Shown one piece after another: positions 2,701 to 55,203 of a DNA stretch of 64,000 nt; position 1 is the stretch's first letter; the number at the start of each line of letters is the position of its first letter. The position numbers and the translations under genes are program-made. This stretch comes from Eledone cirrhosa. Lineage: Eukaryota. Under the pieces are notes generated by a model. It was not told where the DNA came from and did not search any database. It worked only from the letters and a program-made list of their open reading frames with translations. The stretch spans positions 370,326,001-370,390,000 of the forward strand of contig OZ024740.1 in the NCBI GenBank assembly GCA_964016885.1. The letters run 5' to 3'.

Positions 2701-3701
2701 TGTGGCAGCATTAGAGATGTTTTAGATGACTATATTCGATGATGCAATGCGGCTTTGAACAGAGGATCGTAGGTGGAATGTGCAGAATGCTAGAGATGGG
2801 TGATGACTGGTGTCATTTTCATGGTAATGAGCGTTGTTAGAAGTGTAGCAATCTGCTCGTGTAGTTAAAGACGAAAGAATGAAGAAGACATAATTAAAAT
2901 TTTGGGCACACTGCATCCTGAAGAGCTGTAATTTAACAGGATGCTTCCAATTCAAGAAGTAAATTAGTGCAGCCCATAACCGAGCATCTTAGTTTGAAAT
3001 ATTCTATTCCAGACAGTAAATTACTTCAGTGATAGGAAGTACAACGACATAACGTAAATTTAGGGGCTTTGTTGTAGAGAAAAACCACTAAAGGTGGACT
3101 AGGCGAAATGTCTATAAATAATACCTGAAGTGATACCTGAGTCGCATCGTAGTGATCCCGTTGTCAGTTCGAAATTGTGTCTTATGAATACTTTGGTTTT
3201 GCCTTCGTTCGAACAGATATAGTAACAGGAGGAACACCCGATTATAACAGCTTTTGTAACCGCTTTTGATGGTCACTGTGGAGGTGAAACATTCAAGATG
3301 CTGGGGAAAGGAACATATTTCTATAATTGGTAGGTTTCAGGATAGATTGATGTAAGTTGTGAAAGACAAGGAGTTTTCAAGAATATGAGCTAACTGTACG
3401 ACTAAGTGGTTGAGGTCAATGGAAAGGACATTTTCAGGACTGTTACTGGTGTGACTGATATGATCAGAGATTTAAAAAGAAAACAGGGAGACAAATATAT
3501 ATTTCTTATACGTAATAAATTGTCTCCTTCCTGTTTTTTTTATCTTTGATCTTATCACAATTACATCAGTATCAGTCATATATATATATATTATATACAT
3601 ATACATATAGAGAGAGTAATCATAAATGTGGAGACTAAAATCCGAAGAGGGCTCGGAAAGGAGTATATATATATATATATATATATATATGAATGTATAT
3701 A

Positions 3702-4714
3702 TAGTGTGTTTTGCAATACACTGTATGCTTAATTAAAAGCATTTTGAAGACCTTACTTCATTTTTTGGGGGAGTCGTGACAGTCTCACTTACTTTATATT
3801 TTCAGCAACCGCTCTGTATAATCAGTTCCTGATTATTACTAGAATTCTATAAGAATCACCATTCATGATTTTCAGCAAAAAGGTGGAGTACATAGCTTTG
3901 GTAAGTACCAAATAGTACGAAACAGAGCTCTGTCAGCTTTATCTTCCTCTGTTTGCTGAAAATTTAAAGTAAGTGAGACTGTCACTACTCAAAAACAATA
4001 GCGTAAGGTCTTCAAAATGCTTTTAATTAAACATACAGTGTATTGCAAAATACACTATATATATATTGCTATTTTAGAGCACCAATTCTAATTTTCATTT
4101 TCTGCTTGACCAGCAACCGCTCTGTATAATCATTTCCTGATTATTACTAGAATTCTATAAGAATCAAACATTCATGATGTTCAGCAAAGAGGTGGAGTAC
4201 TTAGCTTTGGTAAATACCAAATAGTACGAAACAGAGCTCTGTCAGCTTTATCTCCCCTGTTTGCTGAAAATTTAAAGTAAGTGAGACTGTCACTACTCAA
4301 AAACAATAGCGTAAGGTCTTCAAAATGCTTTTAATTAAACATACAGTGTATTGCAAAATACACTATATATATATTGCTATTTTAGAGCACCAATTCTAAT
4401 TTTCATTTTCTGCTTGACCAGCAACCGCTCTGTATAATCATTTCCTGATTATTACTAGAATTCTATAAGAATCAAACATTCATGATGTTCAGCAAAGAGG
4501 TGGAGTACTTAGCTTTGGTAAATACCAAATAGTACGAAACAGAGCTCTGTCAGCTTTATCTCCCCTGTTTGCTGAAAATTTAAAGTAAGTGAGACTGTCA
4601 CTACTCTAAAACAATAGCGTAAGGTCTTCAAAATGCTTTTAATTGAAGCATACAGTGTATTGCAAAATACACTATATATATATTCATATATATATCGGTA
4701 TTTCAGAGCACCAA

Positions 4715-4720
<6 letters not shown>
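3702..4720 (+). mobile_element. Retrozyme/Penelope-pLTR-like tandem array: three 308-bp units plus a ~105-bp inverted 5' arm
   Basis: Units start cagcaaccgctctg at 3803, 4111 and 4419. Each has gtac-GAAA-cagagctctg-TC (hammerhead 3' half). 3702-3808 is the reverse complement of the unit 3' part. Flanked by (TA)n. Confidence 0.75.
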
Positions 4721-4756
<36 letters not shown>

Positions 4757-4819
4757 TATATAATATTATAATATTATATGATATATATATATATGACTGC
4801 AATATATATATATATATTA

Positions 4820-5074
4820 TTAGAAAGTGAGGGTTTTTTTACAAAATGAAAAATAACCGAGGTGTCCTACACGAGTGAAAGTATAAAGAAAAAAAGATAA
4901 AATTGAAAATGCAACTGGAGTCTTATTTTTAAAACAATATATATATTTTTATTTGGTTCCTTTACCGGTTTCGCAGTTCTTCTGCTTTTTAAAAGTAGAG
5001 TTGAGATGGAGGGTCTGTGGTTTTTCTCACATCTCGTTGGTCTCTCAATGTTACTTGTTTTATATGGAAAAAGT

Positions 5075-5078
<4 letters not shown>
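4820..5078 (-). mobile_element. Penelope-type pseudo-LTR fragment with decayed minimal hammerhead (4960-4995)
   Basis: Minus strand: ctt-TTAAAAA(core decayed from CTGAAGA)-gcag aagaa ctgc-GAAA-ccgg-TA-aag. Palindromic stem III ACCGGT, followed by AATAAA. Lies between (TA)n runs. Confidence 0.5.
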
Positions 5079-5779: not shown

Positions 5780-7045
5780 AATATAAGATCAAAAGATGGT
5801 TAAAGGAGTTCAATATATTTTATTATGCGCATTTCAAAAACAAACATCATTAAACAATAATATTTGTGTTTTCATCAGATAAAACAGGAGAACATGATAT
5901 GAAGGCTAAAAAAACACTTGTTGATAGTGCAGATTTAAATCAACATATGAAAAGTGGTTTTAGATTGATGTGTGATATTGGGAAAAATATTTTATTTAGA
6001 GAGGGGGGGAGAGAAAAGGATGAAAAGGGAAGGAGATGAGAGGGAGAGATGGGTGATAGAGAGAAAGAGATAGTTTTTATAACAGAGAGGAGATATATAT
6101 TATATAGAGGGGTTGAAAACCGTTGGAAGATACTGTATAAATTAAAAATTTTGAAAATTAACGAAGGGAGGATATGTGCGAGGAAAAAATATATTATATT
6201 TAGGGAGGGGTGGGGGTGGAAAGGATGAAAAAAAGGGGAGGAGATGAGAGTGAAGGTGGAAAGGGAGAGATGGGTGATAGAGAGAAAGAGATAGTTTTTA
6301 TAACTGAGAAAAAGATATAATGTTTTAATATAGAGAGGTTGGGAACCGTTGGAAGATAATGTATAAATTAAAGGAATTTGAAAATTAACGAAGGGAAATT
6401 ATGTATGGAGATAGAGAGAAAAAAAAAAAAAAAAATATAACGAAGGGAGATTATGTATGGAGATAGAGAGAAAAAAATAATAATTGTGGGTGAATATTCA
6501 AAAGGAGAAATGTAGGAATCTTAAAATTAGCAAAGAGAAAATGTTTATGTATAGGATTTGAGAAAAATTTATATTGAATTCATATGTATTAATAATGAGT
6601 TTGTTGATGGGGAGAAAAAAATAATAATAATAAATTAAGGATGAAATTGAGATTAAAAAGATTTATGATAGAGAGAAAAAATAATAATGATTGCGGATGA
6701 ATACTCAAAATGTCAAAAACAAATGTTATTGTTTTACGAAGAGATATAATGAGGGTGATGAGTAAACGGGTATTATAGAGTGTATAATGCCCTTTAAAGT
6801 AAGGTAGATGGGTATATTTTAAAGAATATATGAGTATATATTAAAAAAATATATATAATAATAAATTAAGGATGAAATTGAGATTAAAAAGATTTATGAT
6901 AGAGGGAAAAAAATAATAATGATTGCGGATGAATATTCAAAATGTCAAAAACAAATGTTATTGTTTTACGAGAAGATAGGATGAGGTAAATAGGATCCGA
7001 TATCTGCATTGCTTTATTGTACTACAATAAAACTCACCTCCTACA
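5780..7045 (-). mobile_element. Penelope-type long pseudo-LTR with internal duplications and a short inverted 3' tail (~6995-7026)
   Basis: 5780-5947 matches 51276-51443. atccgatatctgcattgctttattgtactaca at ~6995 is the reverse complement of 51208-51238. Internal repeats at ~6040/6260 and ~6620/6855. Contains a hammerhead. Confidence 0.65.
5818..5884 (-). ncRNA. Type I hammerhead ribozyme
   Basis: ttttat-CTGATGA-aaacacaaatattatt gttt aatgatgtttgttttt-GAAA-tgcgca-TA-ataaaa: 6-bp stem I, long stem II with GU pairs, palindromic stem III (ATGCGCAT), AUA cleavage triplet. Confidence 0.75.
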
Positions 7046-7178
<133 letters not shown>

Positions 7179-8438: not shown

Positions 8439-9007
8439 TTGGCAGTATCGGCAGAGGGTCGGACGCCATGCTTTGACGCATAGAGTTACAGCCCTTGCCA
8501 TTCTGAGTTCAAATCCCGCCGAGGTTAACTTTGCCTTTCATCCATACAGGGTCGATAAAATAAAGTACCAGTAATGTACTGGTTAATTGCTGGCCTTCTG
8601 CCAAAAGTAGAAACAATTATTAGTCACTATAGGGCGGTGGATTGGTGTATCGGTATAGGGTTGGACGCCATGTTTTCTAGCATAGTTACGTCTCTTTACG
8701 GTCTGAGTTCAAATCCCGTCGAGGTTAACTTTGCCTTTCATCCTTACGTGGTCGATAAAATAAAGTAGCAGCTGGCATTGCGCCAGAAGTAGAAACAATT
8801 ATTAATCACTATAGGGTGGTGGGTTGGCAATATCGGTAGAGTGTCGGAAACCATGTATTGCAGCATAGAATGATGGCCCTTTACGTTCTGAGTTCAAATC
8901 TCGCATTGGTTAACTTTACCTTTCATCCTTACGGGGCCGATAAAATAAAGCACCAGTAATGCACTGAGTAATTGCTGGCCTTGTGCCAAACGTCGAAATA
9001 AGTATTA
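8439..9007 (+). mobile_element. Three head-to-tail tRNA-derived Meta-domain-type SINEs (8439-8622, 8632-8803, 8812-9007)
   Basis: Each has a tRNA-like head with B-box gagttcaaatc and the gcctttcatcc...gtcgataaaataaagtacc core resembling the MetaSINE domain. Confidence 0.88.
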
Positions 9008-11157: not shown

Positions 11158-13735
<2,578 letters not shown>

Positions 13736-16909: not shown

Positions 16910-19502
16910 TTATCTCTTTCTCTTAATTTCGAGTATATTTTTTTTGACCGGCCACCTTCCTGGTGGCAAGGTTGTAAAAGAAAAGAAATTGTCATCCCTT
17001 GAATCGCAAGAATGTTTTGCAAATTTTGAAGGTGCCAGCTATCGCAGCCATTTGTAGACTATGAATTAGGGAGCTTGGCTTTTTGTCCGCAAATCCAAGT
17101 TGAGTCATACTTTGGTCCAAGCGGGTTGGTATATAACCCGTAGCTCCAATAATGATGGGTATGAAGCTAAATGCGTATCTTGGATACTGGATTTGTAAAC
17201 CCCTCATAAATGGTCCGTAGATGTCCTCCTTCTCCTGTATTTTTCTGACAACGTTTTCATCAAGTGGGCAGCAGATCTCCACAACAGAACACGTTTTCAA
17301 TGTGTGGTCCCAAACAACAACATCAGGCCGGTTGTGCTTTAATTTGGTGGCAGTTTTTATTTTCAGGTTCCACCAGTATTCCTTAGTGCCATCTGTCTCA
17401 ATATATTCTTCCTCGTTTGTTGTTAATGTTGTTTTACGAAGTGTGTTCCAGATGGTTCTAGCTATCCCATCGTGTCTCATGGGGAGGTAGTAGCGAGATG
17501 ACATTCTTTCGCAGCTGGCAACAATGTGGCTTACATCCTCGATCTTTGTTTTACATAGCCTACATTTATTGTCAGCTGCTGGCCCTCCTCTTTTGTGCAG
17601 CAGATATTTGGTAGGGAGTTCTTGTTCCTGTATTGCATAGAGATATCCTTCAAGGTGTTATGTCATAAACCTGTCGGAACTCCATGCCAGGCTTTTTGAG
17701 TGGTTTATCCCCTATATGGTCTGTGTTTTACGCCTAAAGTATCCATGCACAACTTTTTCTGTAAATTGGTCAATTTTTTTATCTTGTTTGAACATTGTAT
17801 AGGATCTTCCGATTTCTCTGGGTGAGAGATTTATATTAGGCTTTATTCCATATCTCTCCTCCAGATCAGTCGCTATTCTAATGATATTTTTTTTTCATGC
17901 TCATAAACCTGGGCAAGATGGTTGCCAACCTTTTTCCTCTGTTGAAGGTGTTGCTTCTGTGTTAATATCCGGGTCTCATATGTTGTTAATATTGAATTTA
18001 GACCCCGGCCACCTTCCTTGCGTGAGAAGTATAGCCTATCCACATCACCATTGATGTTAAAGTTCCCAGTAACACTGAGAAGTTTTCGAGTTCTAACATC
18101 CATCTCACTTAGTTCTTGCAATGACCAGTTCAGCAGGCCAAATGTTGGCGTTAGAATTGGCACAGCATAAGTATTGTGGGCAATGTATTTGTTGTATGCT
18201 GACAATTCTGATGACCATATTTTCTTTACTCTTCTGAGGTATTCAGTTCTGGTTCTCTCCTTATTTATGGGTCCATCATATCTGACATTCTCATCCTGTC
18301 CAAGATATCTGTAGTTGTTATCTGACTGTAGAGGTTATATTGTCAGGCCGTTCTTCTCTAGATTTCTAGAGGAGGGCACAGCTCTTCCACGTTTTACTGC
18401 CAAATATGCACACTTGGACTCACCAAATTTCATTTTGATGTCGGTTGAAAGTTGTGTAATGAGGTCCAATTGTTTCTTGAATTCATTGATATTTGGCCCA
18501 TACAACTTCAGGTCATCAACAAAGAAAAGATGGGAGATACTTTTGGGCCCACTTCTTTGTCCACCTTGTTTCCTGAGTAGGTAAGATAGTGGATTCAGTG
18601 AGAGAACGAAGAGTAGCACTGGCAAGCTATCACTCTGAAAGATGCCCTTCTGGTAATGTATCTTATCAGTCTTAACTTGCTCCTTCTCACCTCTAAGGAT
18701 CAAATTGGTGTACCAGTTCTTGGTCAGGCGTTCAACAGCAGCTACCAATTGTTGTGGGACTTTAGCTAACTGTAAAGCCTTAATAATCCACCCATGAGGT
18801 AGCACAGTGATCCTGTAAGAACAGGTTAAGGCACCCAGTATATAATTTATACATGATGTTTTGGCAGGCTATTGGACGGTAATCTTTAGCAAGGGTGGTT
18901 TGGCTATTTTGGGGAATGAGGAGGGTAGTGGCAGTCGATATCAATCTGGGCACTTCTTGTGTGCCTTTAATGGTTTCTGTAAACAGCCGTATGAGATCTT
19001 GCCGATAGAAAGTGAAATTCTTCAACCAGTATCCTATAATGAGGTCTGGGCCTGGCGATTTCCTATTCGACATTTGCTGTAGAGCTGTTTCCAGTATTGA
19101 CCCATCTATGTCATATTGTTTTGTCTGGACATGTTGGCAGTAGTCCTATTCCAGTTCTTTTAGCCAATTAGTTTGTCTGTTGAATCCGTCATCCGTTTCC
19201 CATACAGATCTCTAGTAGCTCTCAACCTGTTCTTTTGAAGGGGTGTCGTTTACAGGGATTGAGCTTTTGCCACCGAAGCTGCGATAAACTGATTTAGGAT
19301 CTCTGGCAAACAATCTATTTAGCACTTGTCATTTATGTGCTGTTGACTTATATTTTAGTATTTCTGTTGTAGCTGTGAGTTGTTGTTTCAACTGGTGTAA
19401 TTTGGAGTTCAAAGTTTTAAATTTTGTATCTCCAAATCGTCTCTCTAACTTTTTTTTAGGTCTTCCTGGTGTCGTGTGAAGTTGCTCTCTATGTTGCATT
19501 TC
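16910..19502 (-). mobile_element. 5'-truncated, frameshifted R4/Dong-clade LINE (RT plus RLE endonuclease), lineage A
   Basis: KSPGPD, YRPIAC, GIFQSDSL, FFVDDLK, RKEGGRGL, RHD, HNRPD..VEICCP..KEDIY motifs in ORFs 16992-19073. Confidence 0.93.
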
Positions 19503-25964: not shown

Positions 25965-28940
25965 ACAGACGCTGCATGCCAGCACCATAGGAGGACCCTC
26001 TCCGTCTGGAAGTGTAACAGTAATGCCCTTCCTCACATCCCGCTTTACTTTCTCGTATGCGATTCGAGATGCCTCAAAGGCAACTTTTCCCTCATATACA
26101 GTCTTTCTCCATTTATTACGATCAGCAGCAATATTTTCCCATGTATCAGCAGAGATGTCTTTCAAGGAAGCTTTCAAGGAATCTTTATACCTCTTTTTTG
26201 GTTTATGTGGCGGTCGTTTTCCTTTAACCAACTCTCCATAAAAGAGTTGTTTTGGTATTCTAGAATCCTTCATTCTGGCAAGGTGACCACTCCAACGGAG
26301 TCGTTGCTTAAGCACAAGAGCTTCTATACTGTCACACATAGAGCTTTCCAAAATCTCGACATCACTGATGTGGTACCTCCAGTGAACGCCATGGATCCGT
26401 CTGAGACACATCTGATGGAAACGCTCCAATTGCTTAAGGTGGTGTCGATATGTGACCCAGGTCTCGTAGGCATAAAGAAGACAAGAGAGCACACATGCCT
26501 TGTACACCTTTACCTTTGTCCTCCTGCATATGTCTCGCCGGCCCCAGAGTCGCCTTTCTAGCTTTCCGAAAGCATCACTTGCTTTCCTAATCTAAGTGAG
26601 ATTTCACCGTCAAGGTTGCTGTATCGATTGACAGTGCTTCCCAGGTAGACAAACTGATCAACCACTCCAAGTCGTTTACCATACACATAGATATTTGGTT
26701 CAGTGTACTGCTTACCAGGGTAGATTGGTACATGACGACGGTTTTCTTGAGACTGACAGTCAATCCTAGGACAGTGCAAGCGTCAGAAAATGCATTCAAA
26801 ATGTGCTGCATATCACTCTCTGTGTGCGCTAAAAGATCGCAATCATCTGCATACAAGAGCTCTCTTATGATTGATATAAATACTTTTCTCTTTGCAGCAA
26901 AGCGCCTGATGGTAAATATGCTGCCTGAGGTTCGATATCGGATGTAAACACCATGCTCGCAATTCCTGAATGCAATACAGAAAACCATTGCAAAGTATAT
27001 GGCAAACAGGGTCGGTGCTGGAATATCCCTCTGTTTCACTCCATTTTTTACTGAGATAGGCTCCGACATGTTACCTCCGACATTAATCTAAGCCCTCATG
27101 TCGTCATGGAAAGACCTAACTAAAGCAAGGAACCTATCAGGGCAACCAAGTTTCTGGAGAACCTTCCATAATGCATCTCTGTTAACAGTATCGAAAGCTT
27201 TTGTCAGATCGACAAAAACCTGATACAGATCCAAACCTTGTTCCATGCACTTCTCCTGGAGTTGTCTAGCTGAGAAGATCATATCAGTAGTGCCGCGTCC
27301 AGCACGCAAACCAGATTGACTTTCAGGAAGAACACAATCTGCAATGTGTGTCAGCAGACGGTCCAGAAGCACCCTACATAAAACTTTCCCTACGACAGAA
27401 AGCAATGATATACCTCTGTAGTTCCCACAATCATTCCTGTTACCCTTTCCCTTGTACAAGACCACCATTACTGCAGTCCACCATCTGGAGACCTTCCACT
27501 GTTCAGCTTCGAGATAGCCACTGCAACCTCCACAAGCGTCGGACGTTCTGCGAGAGCTACTTTCACAGGACTTTCTGGAATGAGATTGAGGAAATCTTCA
27601 CTGACGACAGACGGCTGATTCAAAAGATCATCAAAGTTCTCTCGCTACCTTCGTAGAATTCCTTGTGAGTCACGAAGAAGTTCTTTGCCATCCTTGATGC
27701 GAGGCGGTGTCACAAGGGAAGAAGACGGTCCATAAACCTCACGCAAGAGACTGTACAACAGCTTTGTGTTATTGGAATCTGACGCAGTTTGTATCTCACC
27801 AGCCTTCTCACTCCATCACTGATCCTTCATCTGAGAAAGACTCCGCCTAACACGTGATTTGACATGCTTGAGTTCCTCATGCAACGTATTCCTCTCTTGT
27901 GGTTTTGCCGTCAAGTAGCGTGACAGAGCACGCCTCTTATCAGCCAAAAAGTCTTCTATATGTACATCATTCTCATTAAACCAGTCCTGATGTTTTCTCA
28001 GCACCAATCCCAGAACACGCCTGCCTACATCATAAACCGACTTTTTAAGGGTCGGCCAATCCTCACCAAGATCTGCAGCCTGCATCTCTTCTTCCAATGT
28101 CCTCTTCACATTGTTATCCTTAAGACGAGCAGCATTCAATCTTTTGGGCAGGGCAACACCAGGAGCCCGGATTTTACGTTTATTGATTAGTTTCACTTTT
28201 GCGCGTACCAGGCAGTGGTCCGTCCAGCACTCAGCTCCGCGAAGAGCACGAACACACTGCACATCCTGTCTTTCACGCATCCTGACTAGGACGTAGGCCA
28301 AAAGATGCCATTCCTTAGATGCAGGATGCATCCATGAATTTGTTCTTTTGTTGGAACATGGTGTTGGTAACACACAGATCCAGCTCCTCACACATCTGCA
28401 ACAGGAGCATACCATTGCTGTTACACTTTCCCACCTCATGCCTTCCGATTACATTCCATGTGTTAAAATCCCTACCCACTCTAGCATTAAAGTCACCAAG
28501 CACGATGACTTTGTCTGCCCGAGGGATATTTTTTAAAACACCTTTCAAGGCATGGTAAAAGGACACTTTTTCTTCATCGACAGAATTCATAGTTGGAGCA
28601 TACACACTCACCAGGGTCGCATATCTTCCTTTGTCCAGCGGAATTCTCATGGACATAAAACGCTCACTAATCCCTACTGGGAATTTTTCTAATTTATTAA
28701 CAAGAACAGTCTTAACAGCAAATCCTACCCAGCCTCTCTTCTGGTTCCTTCATCTCTTCCTTTCCAGAAGAATGTATATTCTCCACAAAATTCTGTAAGA
28801 TGACCATCTCGTCTCAGATAAAGCCACGATGTCAAGATCGTAACGTCGAAGCTCCTTTGCAACAAGAGCGGTCCTTCGTTCAGGACGCTCCAAGGAATCC
28901 CTGTCAAGCAGCGTCCGTACGTTGCAGCAGCCAAGACTAA
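25965..28940 (-). mobile_element. Decayed RTE-clade LINE (APE endonuclease plus RT)
   Basis: VSVYAPT, LGDFNARVG, TDH, YRGISLL, FVDLTKAFD, LLYADD, LRWSGH..RIPKQLFYGEL in ORFs 25905-28934. Confidence 0.95.
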
Positions 28941-29175: not shown

Positions 29176-30280
29176 TAGGAAGCTATTGACTATCTACAAC
29201 ATAGGAAGCTATTGACTATCTACAACATGTTCCACAAGAGGAGTGATGTCGATAGACTCTACTTAAGGAGATCTGAAGGTGGAAGAGGTCTTATCAGCAT
29301 AGAGGACTGTGTTCAGATGGAAAAAAACAACCTACACACATACGTGACTGATAGTAAGGAGCCAATGCTCAGAACTGTACTGAAGGAGGGGACAATAAGC
29401 CAGAGGATGTCCAAGGAAGAAATAACATCAAGGAGAAAGAGCAGCCTTCAGGAAAAATCCCTTCATAGTACCTTCTTTGAGAAAACTGAATTTAGAGATC
29501 CACAGACATGGAACTGGTTGAAAAGAGGAGACCTTAAAAAGGCTACAGAAGGAATGTCAATGGCTGCGCAGGAGCAGGCCCTCAAAGCGAAGTGGTTGAA
29601 ACACCATATTTACAAGGAGGAGGCTAGCCCACTGTGCAGGATCTGTGGAGAGAGAGAGGAGACTGTGGCTCACATTGTATCCGAGTGTAAACACCTAGCC
29701 TAGACTCACTATAAGGGCTGGAGACATGGTGTGATGGGCAGGGTGATCCACTGGCACTTATGCAAAGTAAACAATTTACCACATTCTGAGAAGTGGTATG
29801 AGCATAAGCCAGAGGCGGTGATAGAAAACGATCAGGTGAAGGTGCTGTGGGATTTTAGGATACAGACGGACAAGAAACTGGAACACAATAGACCTGACCT
29901 GGTGGTTGTGGACAAAGGCAAAAGATCGTGCCTGATTGTGGATGTGGCCTGCCCATTCGACACGAGAGTGCAAGAGAAGGAGAGGGAGAAAATTAACCGA
30001 TACCAGGACTTAAAGTGGGAGGTAAAAAGGATTTGGAACTACCATGAAGTCAAAGTGATCCCGATTGTCATAGGCGCACTAGGGACTATCTCAAAAAGTT
30101 TCCAGGGATGGTTAAAGAAAATTGGCCCCTTCACGCTTTTTGGAACGCTTCAAAAGGCATGCTTGCTGGGAACAACAAGAACCCTCCGATCCGTCCTGAA
30201 TATCTGAGGCTGCAGGTAGTGGGTTGATATTCATTTATATAACATCAATGACTGAGACTCAAAGAGTAATAACAATAATA
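29176..30280 (+). mobile_element. 5'-truncated R4/Dong-clade LINE, lineage B, inserted in (TAA)n
   Basis: RSEGGRGL, CRICGEREETVAHIVSEC zinc knuckle, HNRPD..DVACP..KINRY RLE. (TAA)n on both sides. Confidence 0.93.
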
Positions 30281-31810: not shown

Positions 31811-34305
31811 AAGAAAACACCAGGAAGAGACATGATTGTCGGCTACCTGGTACAAAAAGCTGATATTCTATCGGAGGTAACTTACTGACCTCTACAAACA
31901 AGTTCTTAAGGGAGATACACTTATACCAGAATGTTTGACATTAGCACAAACATTGCTGGTCCCCAAGAACAAAGACACCCACTTGGCAAAAAAACTACCT
32001 ACCCATTGCATGCCAGAACCTGATGTATAAGATGAATACAGCCTGTCTGAACCTATTCCTCCAAGATCACTGTGAAAATAATAACATCATCACAGATGAA
32101 CAAGCAGCTGGAAAGAAAGGGGTTTGGGGATGTGCTGAACAACTCCTAATCAACAAAACTGCGATGTCGGAGGTGCGACAACTTAGGCGGAATATGACTA
32201 CAGTCTGGCTGGACTACAGGAAAGCTTTCGATTCTGTTCCCCACTCTTGGGTGGTAGAGGCCCTCCAACTTGCTAAAGTCCCAGACATTATTGTCAGAAC
32301 CATAGAGAGAATGTCTTCTTCTTGGGCTACTATCCTAAGGTTAAAGGCAGAGAGGGAGGACTCTATTTTCACTGATAAAATAAAATATTGCAGGGGTATA
32401 TTTCAGGGGGACAGTCTCTCTGTGATATTATTCATCTTGTCATTAAACCCCTTGTCCTTTCTGCTCAAGAAATGTGAGGGATACATCATTGGCTCACAGG
32501 AGGACAGAAATACGAACCTAACGCATAATTTCTTTGTGGACGATCTGAAACACTATGCCAAGAACATGGATGGATGAAGAAAAATCTTGACCTGGTTACA
32601 ACGTTCTCAAAGGATATAGGAATGGAGTTTAGCCAAGATAAATGCTCATACATGACTGTAAAGCGGGAAAAACAACAGCCCAATCTAGCAACATTGTCAT
32701 CAATGGCCTAACTGTTTCACCGATATCTGATGAGGACTGCTACAGATACCTGGGGATAGATGACAACATATCCTATAATGGCATATGTAATAAAGAACGC
32801 GTAACCAGGTAATACTACACCTGATTAGGAAAGATCAGGTCATCGGAACTCTCTGCGCAAAACAAAACAGTGGCTCACAATGTGATTTCTGTGCCTGTCC
32901 TAACACCAACGTTTGGAATACTCAATTGGACGATAGACGAAATCCGAGCAGTTGGTGTTGGAACTCGAAAAATACTGGACAACACACGGAAACTTCCACA
33001 TCAACAGTGAAATAGACCGCCTTTACTTGAAACGTAAGCAGGGAGGCAGAGGCCTAACATCAGTCCAGACAACATTTGAATGTCGCATCATATCTCTCCG
33101 ACACCATCTACGAACCTCGAAGCGTAGGAGCCCGTTTCTCGAGCAAGTCTATCTGCATGAAACAGATAAGATCATGAGAGTTGGGAAGGAACTCCTTGAG
33201 AGATATTCCCTGTGTGATAATCAAAAACTCACCCCCAGGGATGTCACTCAGCAGTATCGCAGTGAAGCCATGGATGAAAAACTGCATGCCTATCAGCAAA
33301 AAAATCATGCATGGATATGTTGCCAGGAAGCTCCAGTGTGAGAGTAATATAGATAAGGAAAGTAGTCTATCTTAGACCAACAACCGCTATATTGGCTCTC
33401 ACTTTGAGGATACGCTTTCGCAATCCAGAAACAGGAGATTAGCACGAAATACCTGATTCACAAAAGAGATAGGGATGCAGGCAAAACACCTAAATGTGAT
33501 AACAAGTGCAGACTCTGCAGAACTATCATCGAGGGTATCAACCATGTCATCAGCAGCTGTCCAAAGATGTCATCGCAGTACTATCTATCTATGAGGCATG
33601 ATGTAGTGGCCAAAACACTGTACAATGCAGTTCGTAAAAAAGATAGCCCCGATAATAAACACATTAAAAGCTACAACAATGTACATAATATGAAAGAGTA
33701 CTGGTGGAATGTTGCAGTAAAAACCCCAATAAAATGCACGCATAACAGACCAGATATTATGATATGGGACAGGGAGAAGAAAACATGCACAGTAGTGGAC
33801 ATTAGCTGCCCAGCAGATGCCAATATAATATCAGTGAAAAGGAGAATATTTATGCAGAACCGATGAGAAATCTGCAGATAATCCACCCTGATTACACCTT
33901 CAGATATATGCCTGTGATTATTTGGGCACTGGGATATGTCAGTAACTGCATCAATACAAATCTTTGAAGCTAGGCTTCACAGGAACAGAAAGAACACAAC
34001 TAGTTAGGAAATTACAAGTACAATCCATTAATGGAACAGTAAAAATATGTAAAACATTCCAAAAATTTTGCATCTAATAACTGCATATACACATGTACAG
34101 ATACAAAGCATACACACAGGCACACATACAACTCAAAATATACACATTCACACATACAATAACATCCATGTCTACACATGCATGCATACATACATATCTA
34201 CGTAGTTGATGTTGTGTAAATTCCAATGAGAGAGTCTTGTGTCTATGTTAGAAACCGACTCTCTCTCTATTGGTAAAACTTTGTGAAATCATAAAACCAG
34301 AAGAA
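31811..34305 (+). mobile_element. 5'-truncated R4/Dong-clade LINE, lineage A, with (CATA)n tail to 34400
   Basis: WLDYRKAFDSVPH, GIFQGDSLS, FFVDDLK, RKQGGRGL, RHD, HNRPD..DISCP. 3'UTR hairpin ccaatgagagagtc...gactctctctattgg. Confidence 0.93.
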
Positions 34306-37679: not shown

Positions 37680-38380
37680 AAAAACAGGAAACTACAAAGA
37701 AATTAAAACAATAGGCAATCTCATATCATTACTACAAAATATCGCAATAGCCTAACCACAAAATAATTTGAATACATAAGCTATTTCAAATGCAAAACAA
37801 GTACTTTTTACGGCCCACCGAAGATCCACAAATGTAAACTCATAAACGATGTCTGTGACACTTCGACTAAAAAATATATACAATTAACACCACCACAAGA
37901 TTTAAAACTGAGACCAATTATAGCAGGCCTTGCGTGTGAAACCCACAGACTTAGCAATTTCCTGGACATCCTACTAAAGCCCTTCCTAAAACATATACAG
38001 AGTTACATACGGGATGACCTTGATATCCTGAACCCCCTACCTAAAACAGTAAGTGAAGACACAATTCTGGTTTCTTTGACGTAGTAAATCTATACACTAA
38101 CATACCCAATGACTATGGAATAACAGTAGACACACACCAATCTGAAATACCAACACGCATCAAGAAATACTTTATTATTGACGGACTCCGATTTATTTTA
38201 TAGAATAATTATTTTACTTTCAATGCTTCAAAATACACACAGATCTCAGGTACTATATGCGCCACAGTATCAGACCCAACTAAACGGGAACAAAGTCTAA
38301 ATGAACTAAAAAACACACTTACCTTAAGAGCCGTCCCACTTGACATAATAAATAACGGAATAGACAGAGCAAAACACGTA
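37680..38380 (+). mobile_element. Penelope-like element RT fragment (internally deleted)
   Basis: FYGPPKIHK, LKLRPIIAGLACETHRLSNFLDILLKPF, SYIRDDLD and FDVVNLYTNIP read across frameshifts. Confidence 0.85.
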
Positions 38381-52619: not shown

Positions 52620-55203
52620 AATTTCCTTGGATAATCAACAAACAAGAAAGATCAGAACCTTGGTGGAAGAAACGACTGAATGGTCAAATCAAGGAAATGA
52701 GAAAAGACATTGCAAAGCTTGAGTCCTTACTGAATGGGACATTACAAAACATAGACACTAAAGACAGATTGGAAATAAAGTACAAAATTATGGGGGAAAA
52801 AGCTAAATATTATCATAGAGGAACTGAAGCAACGCATTGTAGAAAAGAGTGCAAAGGTTAGGTGGTATGAGAACAGAGTTAGTCAGTATAGACAGAACCG
52901 CATGTTTGACAACAACCAGAAGATTTTGTTTGGAGAGCTTCAAGGGAAAGAAAGAGGCAACGACGTGATCCCTGGGGCGAAACAGACTAAGACATTCTGG
53001 AGAAGAATATGGGAGCAGGATGTTGAACATAATAGTCAGGCAGTGTGGATTGCGGATGAATGTCTGATGTCGGGTGAAGTACCAGAGTGGTTGACAAAAG
53101 GTACCACAGTTCTGGTAATGAAAAACCGAATCAAGGGTAATGATGTTACCAACTATAGGCCTATCACATGTCTGTCCGTAATGTGGAAACTGTTAACAAG
53201 CATTGTGTCTGAGGAAATCTACTATCACCTCCACATAAAACAACTTGTTACCGGACGACCAGAAAGGATGCCGAAAGAAGTCTCGTAGTATAAAAGACCA
53301 GTTACTTATTCATAAAATGGTAATGAGGAATTGCAAGAGGAGGCACACTGGTCTTGCCATGGGATGGATAGATTACAAAAGGCATTCGACATGGTAGCTC
53401 ATTCTTGGATAACCAAAAGCCTAGAGATCTTCAAGGTGACAGATAACATCAGACAGTTGTTGAGCAAAAGTATGAAGTCCTGGGAAACAGAGTTAACATC
53501 AGGTGGAGAATCCTTGCTAGGTGTGAAGATCAAGAGAGGTATCTTCCAGGGAGATAGTTTGTCCCCTCTGCTGTTTGTCCTTTCCCTGATACCCCTGTCC
53601 GTTATATTGCGAAATGTGAGAGCAGGAAACAAGTTGGGAAGAGGAGAGCTACCATCAACCCCCTCCTCATGGATAATCTTAAACTCTTTGGGAAGAGTGA
53701 GAAGGAATTGAATGTACTTGTTGACACTGTCCGTATTTTCAGCAATGATATATGTATGGAATTTTGCATTAATAAGTGTGGAGTCCTAGTGATGAAGAGG
53801 GGTAAATTGAGCAGAAGCAACGGAATCCAGGTACCAACAGGTGGGATGATAAAGGAAATTGACACTGAAGAGCGGATACAAATATTTAGGTGTTCTGGAG
53901 GCAGATGACATCAAGAACAAAACAATGAAGGAATTGATAAGATCTGAGTACATAAGGAGAGTAAGTAGCGTATTAAAATCTCATCTAAATAGTAGGAATG
54001 CCATAAGTGGAGTAAATTCCCGAGCTGTGTCTATTATTAGGTACAGTGCGGGAATTGAGAAATGGAATGTTGCTGAACAAAAAGAAATGGATAGGAAGAC
54101 TAGGAAGCTATTGACTATCTACAACATGTTCCACAAGAGGAGTGATGTCGATAGACTCTACTTAAGGAGATCTGAAGGTGGAAGAGGTCTTATCAGCATA
54201 GAGGACTGTGTTCAGATGGAGAAAAACAACCTGCACAAATATGTGACTGACAGTAGGGAGCCAATGCTCAAAATTGTACTGAAGGAGGAGACAATAGACC
54301 AGGTGATGTCCAAGGAGGAAATAACAACAAGGAGGAAGAGCAACCTTCATGAAAAATCCCTTCATAGCACCTTCTTTAAGAAAACGGAATTTAGAGATCC
54401 ACAGACATGGAACTGATTAAAAAGAGGAGACCTTAAAAAAGCTACAGAAGGAATGTTAATGGCTGCGCAAGAGCAAGCCCTCAGGACGAATTGGGTGAAA
54501 CACCATATTGACAAGGAAGAGGCTAGCTCACTATGTAGGATCTGTTGAGAGACAGAGGAGACTGTGGCCCACATTGTATCCGAGTGTAAACACCGAGCCC
54601 AGACTCTCTATAAAGGCTGGAGACATGATGTGATAGGCAGGGTGATCCACTGGCATCTATGCAAAGTAAATAATTTACCACATTCTCAGAAGTGGAATGA
54701 ACATAAGCCAGAGTCGGTGATAGAAAACGATCAGGTGAAGGTGCTATGGGATTTTAGGATACAGACGGACAAGAAATTAGAACACAATAGGCCTGACCTG
54801 ATGGTTGTGGACAAGGAAAAAAGATCGTGCCTGATTGTAGATGTAGCCTGCCTATTTGACACGAGATTGCAAGAAAAGGAGAGGGAGAAAATTATCCGAT
54901 ACCAGGATTTAAAGTGGGAGTTAAAAGGGATTTGTAACTGCCATGAAATCAAAGTCGTCCCGATTGTCATAGGCTCACTAGGTACTATCTCAAAGAGTTT
55001 CCAAGGATGGTTAAAGAAGATTAGTCCAGCCCCGCTTTTTGGAACACTTCAAAAGGCATACTTGCTGGGAAAAGCAAGAACCCTCCGATACGTCCTGAAT
55101 GTCTGAGGCTGCAGGTAGCGGCTTGATATTCATTTCAACAAAATTTCCAGTTAAATAACATCAATAACTGAGACTCAAAGAACAATAATAGTAATAATAA
55201 TAA
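52620..55203 (+). mobile_element. Decayed R4/Dong-clade LINE, lineage B, with (TAA)n tail
   Basis: [51 protein letters not shown]. The 3' 1.1 kb is colinear with 29202-30280. Internal deletion near 53050. Confidence 0.93.

What the first reader, a model, noticed from the sequence alone, without database searches (positions are those of the whole stretch)
3702..4720. Retrozyme-like 3 x 308-bp array whose hammerhead has lost its CUGANGA core in every unit
Seen in each unit (e.g. 4180-4268): stem II (gtact..tttggt aaat accaaa..agtac), GAAA, perfect palindromic stem III ACAGAGCTCTGT, a GUC site, then agctttatctcccctgtttgctgaa whose distal part pairs with upstream ttcagcaaagaggtggag. The strand that should pair with agctttat, and the CUGANGA box, are absent, as if ggag[ataaagctCTGANGAg]tac was deleted between two GAG microhomologies (inference). 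An inverted copy of the unit end caps the array via a cagcaa microhomology. Known: animal non-LTR retrozymes are tandem units of a few hundred nt with one hammerhead each that yield circular RNAs, and Penelope insertions often carry an inverted 5' arm. Inference: a catalytically dead unit was still multimerised, by read-around reverse transcription, trans-complementation or later DNA duplication.
Basis: partly seen in the sequence, partly recalled or inferred. Interest (0 to 1): 0.8.

Follow-up and report, generated by a model that had tools for sequence, protein, structure and literature searches.

The report
Retrozyme with a swapped hammerhead core
This is a damaged copy of a roughly 320-base jumping repeat whose self-cutting RNA core is not deleted but carries a compensating U-A pair where the textbook has C-G, in about 1,800 copies; their ends show the insertion pattern of Penelope-type retrotransposons, which likely spread them.

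Summary
The 3 x 308-bp array, palindromic stem III, GUC site and inverted arm are real. The claimed core deletion is not. The core lines up without a gap against canonical CUGANGA sister copies and reads UUGAUAA in the family (C3-G8 swapped to U3-A8). The window's copies have decayed further (A6G in all three, G10.1A in two). The genome holds 1,807 exact U3-A8 motifs, at most 107 C3-G8 sister motifs, and 4 + 4 mismatched intermediates. Stem II changes compensatorily while the core stays fixed, which points to a selected, likely active ribozyme. Insertions carry the Penelope signature: 5' truncation, an inverted arm, (TA)n targets and two fixed 3' ends 26 nt apart, one on each arm (35 of 42 loci). 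Autonomous Neptune/Nematis-type Penelope elements here show the same two-end pattern and also use U3-A8 (19,816 motifs); a fragment of one lies 100 bp from the array. Units 2 and 3 are a later DNA duplication. Verdict: a new variant of a known kind (non-LTR retrozyme). Cleavage, circular RNA and the exact mobilising family are untested.

The parts
3681..3808 (-). Inverted, 5'-truncated arm (unit positions 18-143 counted from the cleavage site); its outer end is the tail-less 3' end A, running into the (TA)n tract
3803..3808 (.). 6-nt overlap (microhomology) between the inverted and direct arms
3803..3934 (+). First, 5'-truncated unit ending at the predicted cleavage site
3874..3960 (+). Type I hammerhead 1: core 3898-3904 (U3-A8 type, A6G at 3901), stem II intact, predicted cut after 3934
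3935..4243 (+). Full unit 2 (309 bp; 12-bp slippage deletion in the internal TA tract relative to the 320-bp family unit)
4183..4268 (+). Hammerhead 2: core 4207-4213 (A6G at 4210), G10.1A at 4214, predicted cut after 4243
4244..4551 (+). Full unit 3 (308 bp), identical to unit 2 over 300 bp: inferred DNA-level duplication after decay
4491..4576 (+). Hammerhead 3: core 4515-4521 (A6G at 4518), G10.1A at 4522, predicted cut after 4551
4552..4720 (+). Terminal partial unit (positions 1-169), lacking the private changes of units 2 and 3; carries the ~26-nt tail and ends at 3' end B
3664..3703 (.). (TA)n tract at the left end (inferred target; overlaps the unit's own TA tract)
4720..4817 (.). (TA)n tract at the right end, shared with the neighbouring Penelope fragment
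4820..5075 (-). 3' end fragment of an autonomous Penelope-like family (93% over 256 nt to L118), with a decayed minimal U3-A8 hammerhead (core 4992-4986, G5A); separate insertion, tail-to-tail with the array

Best explanation
The array is a decayed insertion of a high-copy, ~320-bp non-coding tandem repeat family with one type I hammerhead motif per unit whose core reads UUGAUAA (U3-A8 in place of C3-G8), likely a self-cleaving non-LTR retrozyme copied into (TA)n tracts by a Penelope-like retrotransposon protein. Mechanism, step by step. (1, inferred) Multimeric transcripts of intact copies self-cleave at GUC, probably as hammerhead dimers joined through the palindromic stem III, and monomers circularise. 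(2, inferred from shown ends) A Neptune/Nematis-type RT + GIY-YIG protein nicks both strands of a (TA)n tract and starts reverse transcription at two internal sites 143 and 169 nt downstream of the cut site, one per strand. (3, shown pattern, inferred cause) The two cDNAs read back through intact or religated cut sites, stop at variable points and are joined head to head by microhomology, giving a direct arm with a tail and an inverted arm without it. (4, shown by shared changes) At this locus the insert held two hammerheads, both with A6G; it then decayed, and one 308-bp period was duplicated as DNA. The window copies are predicted to cleave poorly or not at all.
For: No gap at the core against 25 CUGANGA sister copies. 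Genome counts: U3-A8 563, U3-G8 4, C3-A8 4 with one flank pattern; C3-G8 107 with a looser one; 1,807 U3-A8 when stem II variants are allowed; reversed-pattern controls 0. In 60 loci picked on a non-ribozyme 20-mer the core is UUGAUAA in 74 of 79 segments. Stem II pair 2 is U-A in 34 and C-G in 15 of 52 loci, pair 4 is C-G in 38 and U-A in 7. Whole structure: 95.4% of cells paired, 55 double changes against 14.8 in shuffles and at most 11 in slid controls. Rfam HH9 aligns UUGAUAA onto its core (E 2.5e-4). U3-A8 is natural and active (PMC3088659) and occurs in Schistosoma Penelope elements (PMC4209133). Ends: one A and one B end in 35 of 42 two-armed loci; 79 of 92 ends run into TA repeats; 87 of 118 arms cross the cut site. 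Penelope family A shows the same A+B pattern in 6 of 6 two-armed loci and is of similar age. Two internal RT starts on both strands explain the tail in vitro (PMC11167929).
Against: No cleavage or circular RNA was observed. Rfam scores are below the gathering cut-off (24.5 against 52), and neither a C3-G8 sister copy nor the window copy got a hammerhead hit. Each compensatory change is one inherited event, so there are about four events (3-8, two in stem II, one in the stem III palindrome), not dozens. The unconstrained fold of a monomer buries the core in an alternative helix 4.2 kcal/mol more stable than the hammerhead fold. No terminal-repeat homology was found between the unit and the 36 GIY-YIG loci examined, apart from separate unit insertions in three of them, so the mobiliser is not pinned. 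The tail is 26 nt, against 62 nt in Penelope family A and 30-40 nt in the literature. Depletion of core changes among within-locus shared changes is not significant (2 of 28 against 192 of 926, p = 0.095).
Confidence: 0.82

Rival explanations
1. Non-autonomous Penelope passenger without a circular stage: tandem transcripts are reverse-transcribed uncleaved, and the hammerhead works rarely or only with protein help.
For: 87 of 118 arms cross the cut site, as uncleaved multimers would. Hammerhead mutants did not impair insertion by a Penelope protein in vitro, and that ribozyme needed the protein (PMC11167929). The monomer's best fold buries the core.
Against: Core constancy with stem covariation shows selection on the ribozyme. 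Five arms at four loci begin exactly at the cut site against 0.37 expected per position (weak, since position 15 has six). The unit folds strongly as a circle (z = -6.2).
Confidence: 0.13
2. One reading: the core was deleted between microhomologies and the dead unit was multimerised or complemented in trans.
For: The window's three hammerheads are all defective. A6G sits in two originally separate hammerheads here and at L085, which shares two lineage alleles with the window. Two other loci share a core change between direct units.
Against: No deletion exists. A6G has 5 matches at 3 loci genome-wide against 563 intact. The third window copy is a DNA duplicate.
Confidence: 0.02
3. A MITE or foldback DNA transposon with terminal inverted repeats and TA duplications.
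For: 3695-4070 folds into a long hairpin with ~110-bp arms flanked by TA.
Against: Inner arm ends vary across the whole unit, arm lengths reach 1,006 nt and 16 of 60 loci have one arm only. The two outer ends differ (A against B). Units are tandem and contain a covarying ribozyme.
Confidence: 0.02
4. A satellite spread only by DNA-level processes.
For: Long arrays exist (L132 at least 17 units, L133 about 14), and the window's unit 2/3 duplication is DNA-level.
Against: Most copies are dispersed, 5'-truncated and share fixed 3' ends at TA tracts.
Confidence: 0.01

Closest known systems
Animal non-LTR retrozymes (PMC7229834, passages read; bioRxiv 10.64898/2026.07.22.740005, parts 1-3 of 5 read)
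   Same: Tandem non-coding units of a few hundred bp, one type I hammerhead each, low GC, monomers to long multimers, coexisting with Penelope-like elements.
   Different: Core is U3-A8 in the dominant subfamily. Insertions show inverted arms, a one-sided tail and (TA)n targets, which the passages read do not report for retrozymes. No homology to a Penelope terminal repeat was found here, whereas 24 of 57 Xenopus families matched known elements. Cleavage and circles are untested here.
U3-A8 minimal hammerheads of Schistosoma mansoni Penelope (Cercyon) elements (PMC4209133, passages and two of its supplement files searched)
   Same: Same core covariation, including the UUGAUAA reading; palindromic stem III suited to dimers.
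   Different: Those are minimal motifs, mostly single, in autonomous elements (about 1,300). Here the variant is in a full type I hammerhead of a tandem non-coding unit, beside a C3-G8 sister, and in about 20,000 Penelope motifs.
Endonuclease-bearing Penelope-like elements, Neptune/Nematis type (PMC8557442 passages; PMC11167929 parts 1-2 of 4)
   Same: 5' truncation, partial tandems, inverted 5' copy, tail at one end, microsatellite targets, two internal RT starts.
   Different: The unit encodes no protein and shares no detectable sequence with the Penelope copies tested; tail 26 nt.

Membership tests
Type I hammerhead (family copies) | Three helices around a conserved core, stem I open, UH cut site | tested here: met
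Type I hammerhead (family copies) | Watson-Crick pair between core positions 3 and 8 | tested here: met
   U-A 52, C-G 24, other 2 of 78 distinct rows; genome counts
Type I hammerhead (window copies) | Invariant A6 and G10.1-C11.1 | tested here: not met
   A6G in 3 of 3, G10.1A in 2 of 3; changes at A6 lower activity (PMC3088659)
Type I hammerhead | Self-cleavage at the predicted site | not testable with these tools
   Only an indirect hint: 5 of 118 arms start at the site
Non-LTR retrozyme | Tandem units of 150-450 bp with one hammerhead each | tested here: met
Non-LTR retrozyme | No protein coding, GC below 50% | tested here: met
   No stop-free frame of 120 aa or more between 688 and 5392; GC 0.36 over 3771-3989
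Non-LTR retrozyme | Highly self-paired monomer | tested here: met
   Predicted only: circular fold -81.9 against -50.3 +/- 5.1 kcal/mol in 60 shuffles
Non-LTR retrozyme | Expressed as linear and circular RNA | not testable with these tools
   No usable RNA run was served
Non-LTR retrozyme | Target-site duplication where present | tested here: inconclusive
   Ends lie in (TA)n tracts, which hide duplications
Penelope-type insertion | Inverted 5'-truncated copy, tail on one end, microsatellite target | tested here: met
   definition from PMC8557442
Autonomous Penelope-like element | RT + GIY-YIG open reading frame | tested here: not met
   None in the unit; present in L116, L120, L121, L126
Derivative of a Penelope terminal repeat | Sequence homology to a Penelope terminal repeat | tested here: inconclusive
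   None in 36 GIY-YIG loci out of 10,597 first-look candidates
MITE | Fixed length between two matching terminal inverted repeats | tested here: not met

The most novel reading that the evidence does not exclude
The retrozyme switched its catalytic C3-G8 pair to U3-A8 because its mobiliser, the genome's dominant Penelope protein, binds or chaperones hammerheads of that type. The helper's own ribozyme is U3-A8 in 19,816 motifs against 11 CUGANGA with the same stem III. The U3-A8 subfamily is derived, younger and far more numerous than its C3-G8 sister. That would be a parasite matching its helper at a ribozyme's catalytic core.
Probability: 0.1. Interest if true: 0.8.

Novelty: new variant of a known kind. 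Interest (0 to 1): 0.52.

Why it matters
Which enzyme moves animal retrozymes is still argued from co-occurrence and terminal-repeat similarity (PMC7229834; bioRxiv 10.64898/2026.07.22.740005). This family carries the insertion footprint described as peculiar to Penelope elements (two RT starts, one per arm; inverted 5' arm; microsatellite target), beside intact candidate helper genes, so mobilisation can be tested in vitro. It also shows that a CUGANGA-only search misses the main retrozyme subfamily and about 20,000 Penelope hammerheads in this genome. Sister subfamilies with C3-G8 and U3-A8 cores give a natural comparison of the two cores. The window's copy itself is an ordinary decayed insertion.

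Tried and rejected
Core deletion: rejected. MITE: rejected. A mobile A6G lineage of any size: rejected, 5 matches at 3 loci. Rfam on the window region gave no hammerhead match among 25 rows up to E 10 and none for 4155-4305. RNA search: no RNA holder listed, which says nothing on expression; run X4 has one deep contig over the hammerhead but its kind is not on record. Laying four runs on 4150-4330 at 97% left 4206-4219 without cover, so the window's private core alleles were not checked in reads; a hole proves nothing. My guess that gaps at C1:82.39 Mb and C1:93.46 Mb held an autonomous partner was wrong: both are long tandem arrays. One search used core positions off by one; the core figures were redone (its end counts stand). 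One search had the distal helix off register; redone. The first count of arms starting at the cut site was inflated by broken alignments; redone. Directional convergence of stem II towards the Penelope sequence was considered and dropped: the youngest, commonest subfamily keeps the older stem II. Co-location of the Penelope motif with retrozyme loci: 5 hits at 3 of 60 loci against 1.1 expected, weak because 3 hits are in one locus. Three look-ups of earlier findings returned nothing. Literature searches showed no U3-A8 retrozyme and no tail signature reported for retrozymes. The supplement of PMC7229834, one file of PMC4209133 and all bioRxiv supplements could not be read and may bear on novelty. 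PMC7151607 and PMC13282606 (passages) added nothing beyond A6C being deleterious.

Full report
Observation. The array is real: 3803-4684, period 308, 2.9 copies, with an inverted copy of the unit end at 3681-3808 that overlaps the direct arm by 6 nt and TA tracts on both sides. The core is not absent. Reading 5' to 3' in unit 2: AGCT (stem I, 4203-4206), seven core bases (4207-4213), a 4-bp stem II with a 6-nt loop, GAAA, stem III, UC, cut, AGCT.

The family. The window lies in a 3.0-Gb genome; a DNA search found 1,699 candidates and scored 40. Relatives have 317-322-bp units and their core reads UUGAUAA. In standard numbering this is U3 U4 G5 A6 U7 A8 A9: the tertiary pair C3-G8 has become U3-A8. 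A sister subfamily, about 83% identical, has CUGANGA (107 pattern matches). Aligning 52 U3-A8 copies, 25 sister copies and the three window copies leaves no gap over the core. With one flank pattern the genome holds 563 U3-A8, 4 U3-G8 and 4 C3-A8 matches out of 771 with a free core. Allowing stem II variants gives 1,807 U3-A8 matches; a 20-mer outside the ribozyme gives 1,726. These are exact-match counts, so lower bounds; reversed-pattern controls were 0.

Is the variant ribozyme selected? I took the loci listed first for the non-ribozyme 20-mer (60 loci after removing duplicates and two long arrays, later 70; all on contig C1, from the first 100 of 1,726 matches). The core is UUGAUAA in 74 of 79 segments; all 14 core bases are intact in 54 of 79. 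Within this U3-A8 set stem II changes in step: pair 2 is U-A in 34 and C-G in 15 of 52 loci, pair 4 is C-G in 38 and U-A in 7, and three loci change both sides of the stem III palindrome. On the 80-row alignment 95.4% of cells pair, with 55 double changes against 14.8 in shuffles and at most 11 in slid controls; relatedness inflates this, and it rests on about four events. A tree with the core and stem II masked (101 rows, one outgroup, L062) puts 74 U3-A8 rows in one clade (support 0.86), the 23 sister rows outside and three U3-A8 rows unresolved. U3-A8 thus looks derived, and the stem II changes came later, so selection continued after the swap. U3-A8 groups are a little younger (3.0-3.5% from their consensus against 4.6%). 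Rfam HH9 aligns an intact copy at E 2.5e-4, below its cut-off. U3-A8 is a natural, active variant (PMC3088659, passages) and known from Schistosoma Penelope elements (PMC4209133, passages and supplement search). Folding predicts that a lone hammerhead prefers a helix that buries the core (-33.3 against -29.1 kcal/mol), while two stem III palindromes pair strongly (-21.5). This fits cleavage as dimers and quiet monomers (PMC4209133). Contigs from a second organism cover the hammerhead, keep A8 and show the stem II variant (run X5; position 3 could not be read from the listed rows).

How it inserts. Outer ends fall at two places, about 143 (A) and 169 (B) nt after the cut site. In loci with two arms, one is A and the other B in 35 of 42 (30 of 33 in the first 60 loci, p = 1.4e-6). 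79 of 92 ends run into TA repeats, and 23 of 41 arm junctions overlap by a few bases. Inner ends are spread over the unit; 87 of 118 arms cross the cut site, so the template was mostly uncleaved multimer or circle, which DNA cannot tell apart. Five arms at four loci start exactly at the cut site, a weak hint of cleaved templates, since a fold-back hot spot at position 15 has six. This is the structure described for Penelope-like elements: truncated tandems, inverted 5' copy, a tail at one end, microsatellite targets (PMC8557442, passages). In vitro a Penelope protein nicks both strands of AT-rich DNA and starts at two internal sites that bound the tail; hammerhead mutants still insert, and the ribozyme needed the protein (PMC11167929, parts 1-2 of 4).

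Candidate helpers. GIY-YIG gave 10,597 first-look candidates. Long frames carry RT plus GIY-YIG, and L118 has the C-x4-C-x2-C linker that marks Neptune/Nematis. Several families have minimal hammerheads in their 3' repeats; three read UUGANAA and two read CUGANGA. UUGANAA with the shared stem III has 19,816 matches (control 10) against 11 for CUGANGA. Family A ends in TA tracts at two sites 62 nt apart, one per arm in 6 of 6 two-armed loci, is about 3% diverged (sample biased to intact copies), and shares only a six-base end motif with the retrozyme. A family A fragment lies at 4820-5075, tail to tail with the array across one TA tract. No terminal-repeat homology to the unit was found in 36 loci. 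Penelope mobilisation is therefore likely (about 0.8); family A as the helper is about even odds.

History of this locus. Units 2 and 3 are identical over 300 bp and share a 12-bp slippage deletion and nine substitutions, G10.1A among them, that the first and last partial units lack. One period was duplicated as DNA after decay. The original insert had two hammerheads, both with A6G. A6G has 5 matches at 3 loci; L085 shares it and two lineage alleles. An A6G template may have been copied twice, or conversion acted locally. Across 85 loci, core changes shared within a locus are 2 of 28 against 192 of 926 elsewhere (p = 0.095). Copying a defective template needs no special mechanism given PMC11167929.

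Comparison and verdict. It works like an animal non-LTR retrozyme and meets every defining feature testable from DNA (PMC7229834, passages); cleavage and circles are untested. Penelope origin of retrozymes was argued from co-occurrence and terminal-repeat similarity (bioRxiv 10.64898/2026.07.22.740005, parts 1-3 of 5). My searches found no U3-A8 retrozyme and no tail footprint reported for retrozymes; unread supplements may hold them. The simplest cause of the swap is compensatory drift through two transitions in an AT-rich genome (inference); matching to the helper is the bold alternative (0.1). Novelty: new variant of a known kind. Interest 0.52.

Noticed in passing
window 4820-5075 (-); L116, L118, L122, L124, L125, L129: A very abundant Neptune/Nematis-type Penelope family with intact-looking frames and a minimal U3-A8 hammerhead; about 19,800 motifs genome-wide together with related families.
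   Followed up: partly
L128 and L130 (3' of the GIY-YIG frame); L074, L076: A Penelope family whose hammerhead reads GCAA in place of GAAA in all four copies seen, with a U3-A8 core: a possible natural A13C variant.
   Followed up: no
L161:1-1065: A 310-bp tandem family about 79% similar to the unit body, with three identical copies and a different, degenerate CUGAAGA hammerhead-like segment.
   Followed up: no
L062:2438-2871: An older retrozyme relative with a CUGAUGA core, inserted at the TA tract that ends a Penelope copy; used as outgroup.
   Followed up: partly
L132 and L133: Long head-to-tail arrays of the unit (at least 17 and about 14 units, 86-95% to consensus), possible source loci or DNA-level expansions.
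   Followed up: no
L126:6985: A separate canonical CUGAUGA hammerhead-like motif about 180 nt before a TA tract, unrelated to the unit.
   Followed up: no
window 16995-18868, 26590-28749, 29179-29700, 31945-32574, 53316-53708; 37707-38380: Broken reverse transcriptase and endonuclease fragments of LINE type and a broken Penelope RT fragment; no host gene was detected among 26 frames scanned.
   Followed up: partly
window 6615-7089, 8589-8950, 11915-12464: Other short tandem repeats with periods 232, 185 and 173.
   Followed up: no
unit position 15-17 in 70 loci: Hot spot of arm truncation where the distal stem I hairpin allows fold-back; the window's inverted arm starts beside it.
   Followed up: partly
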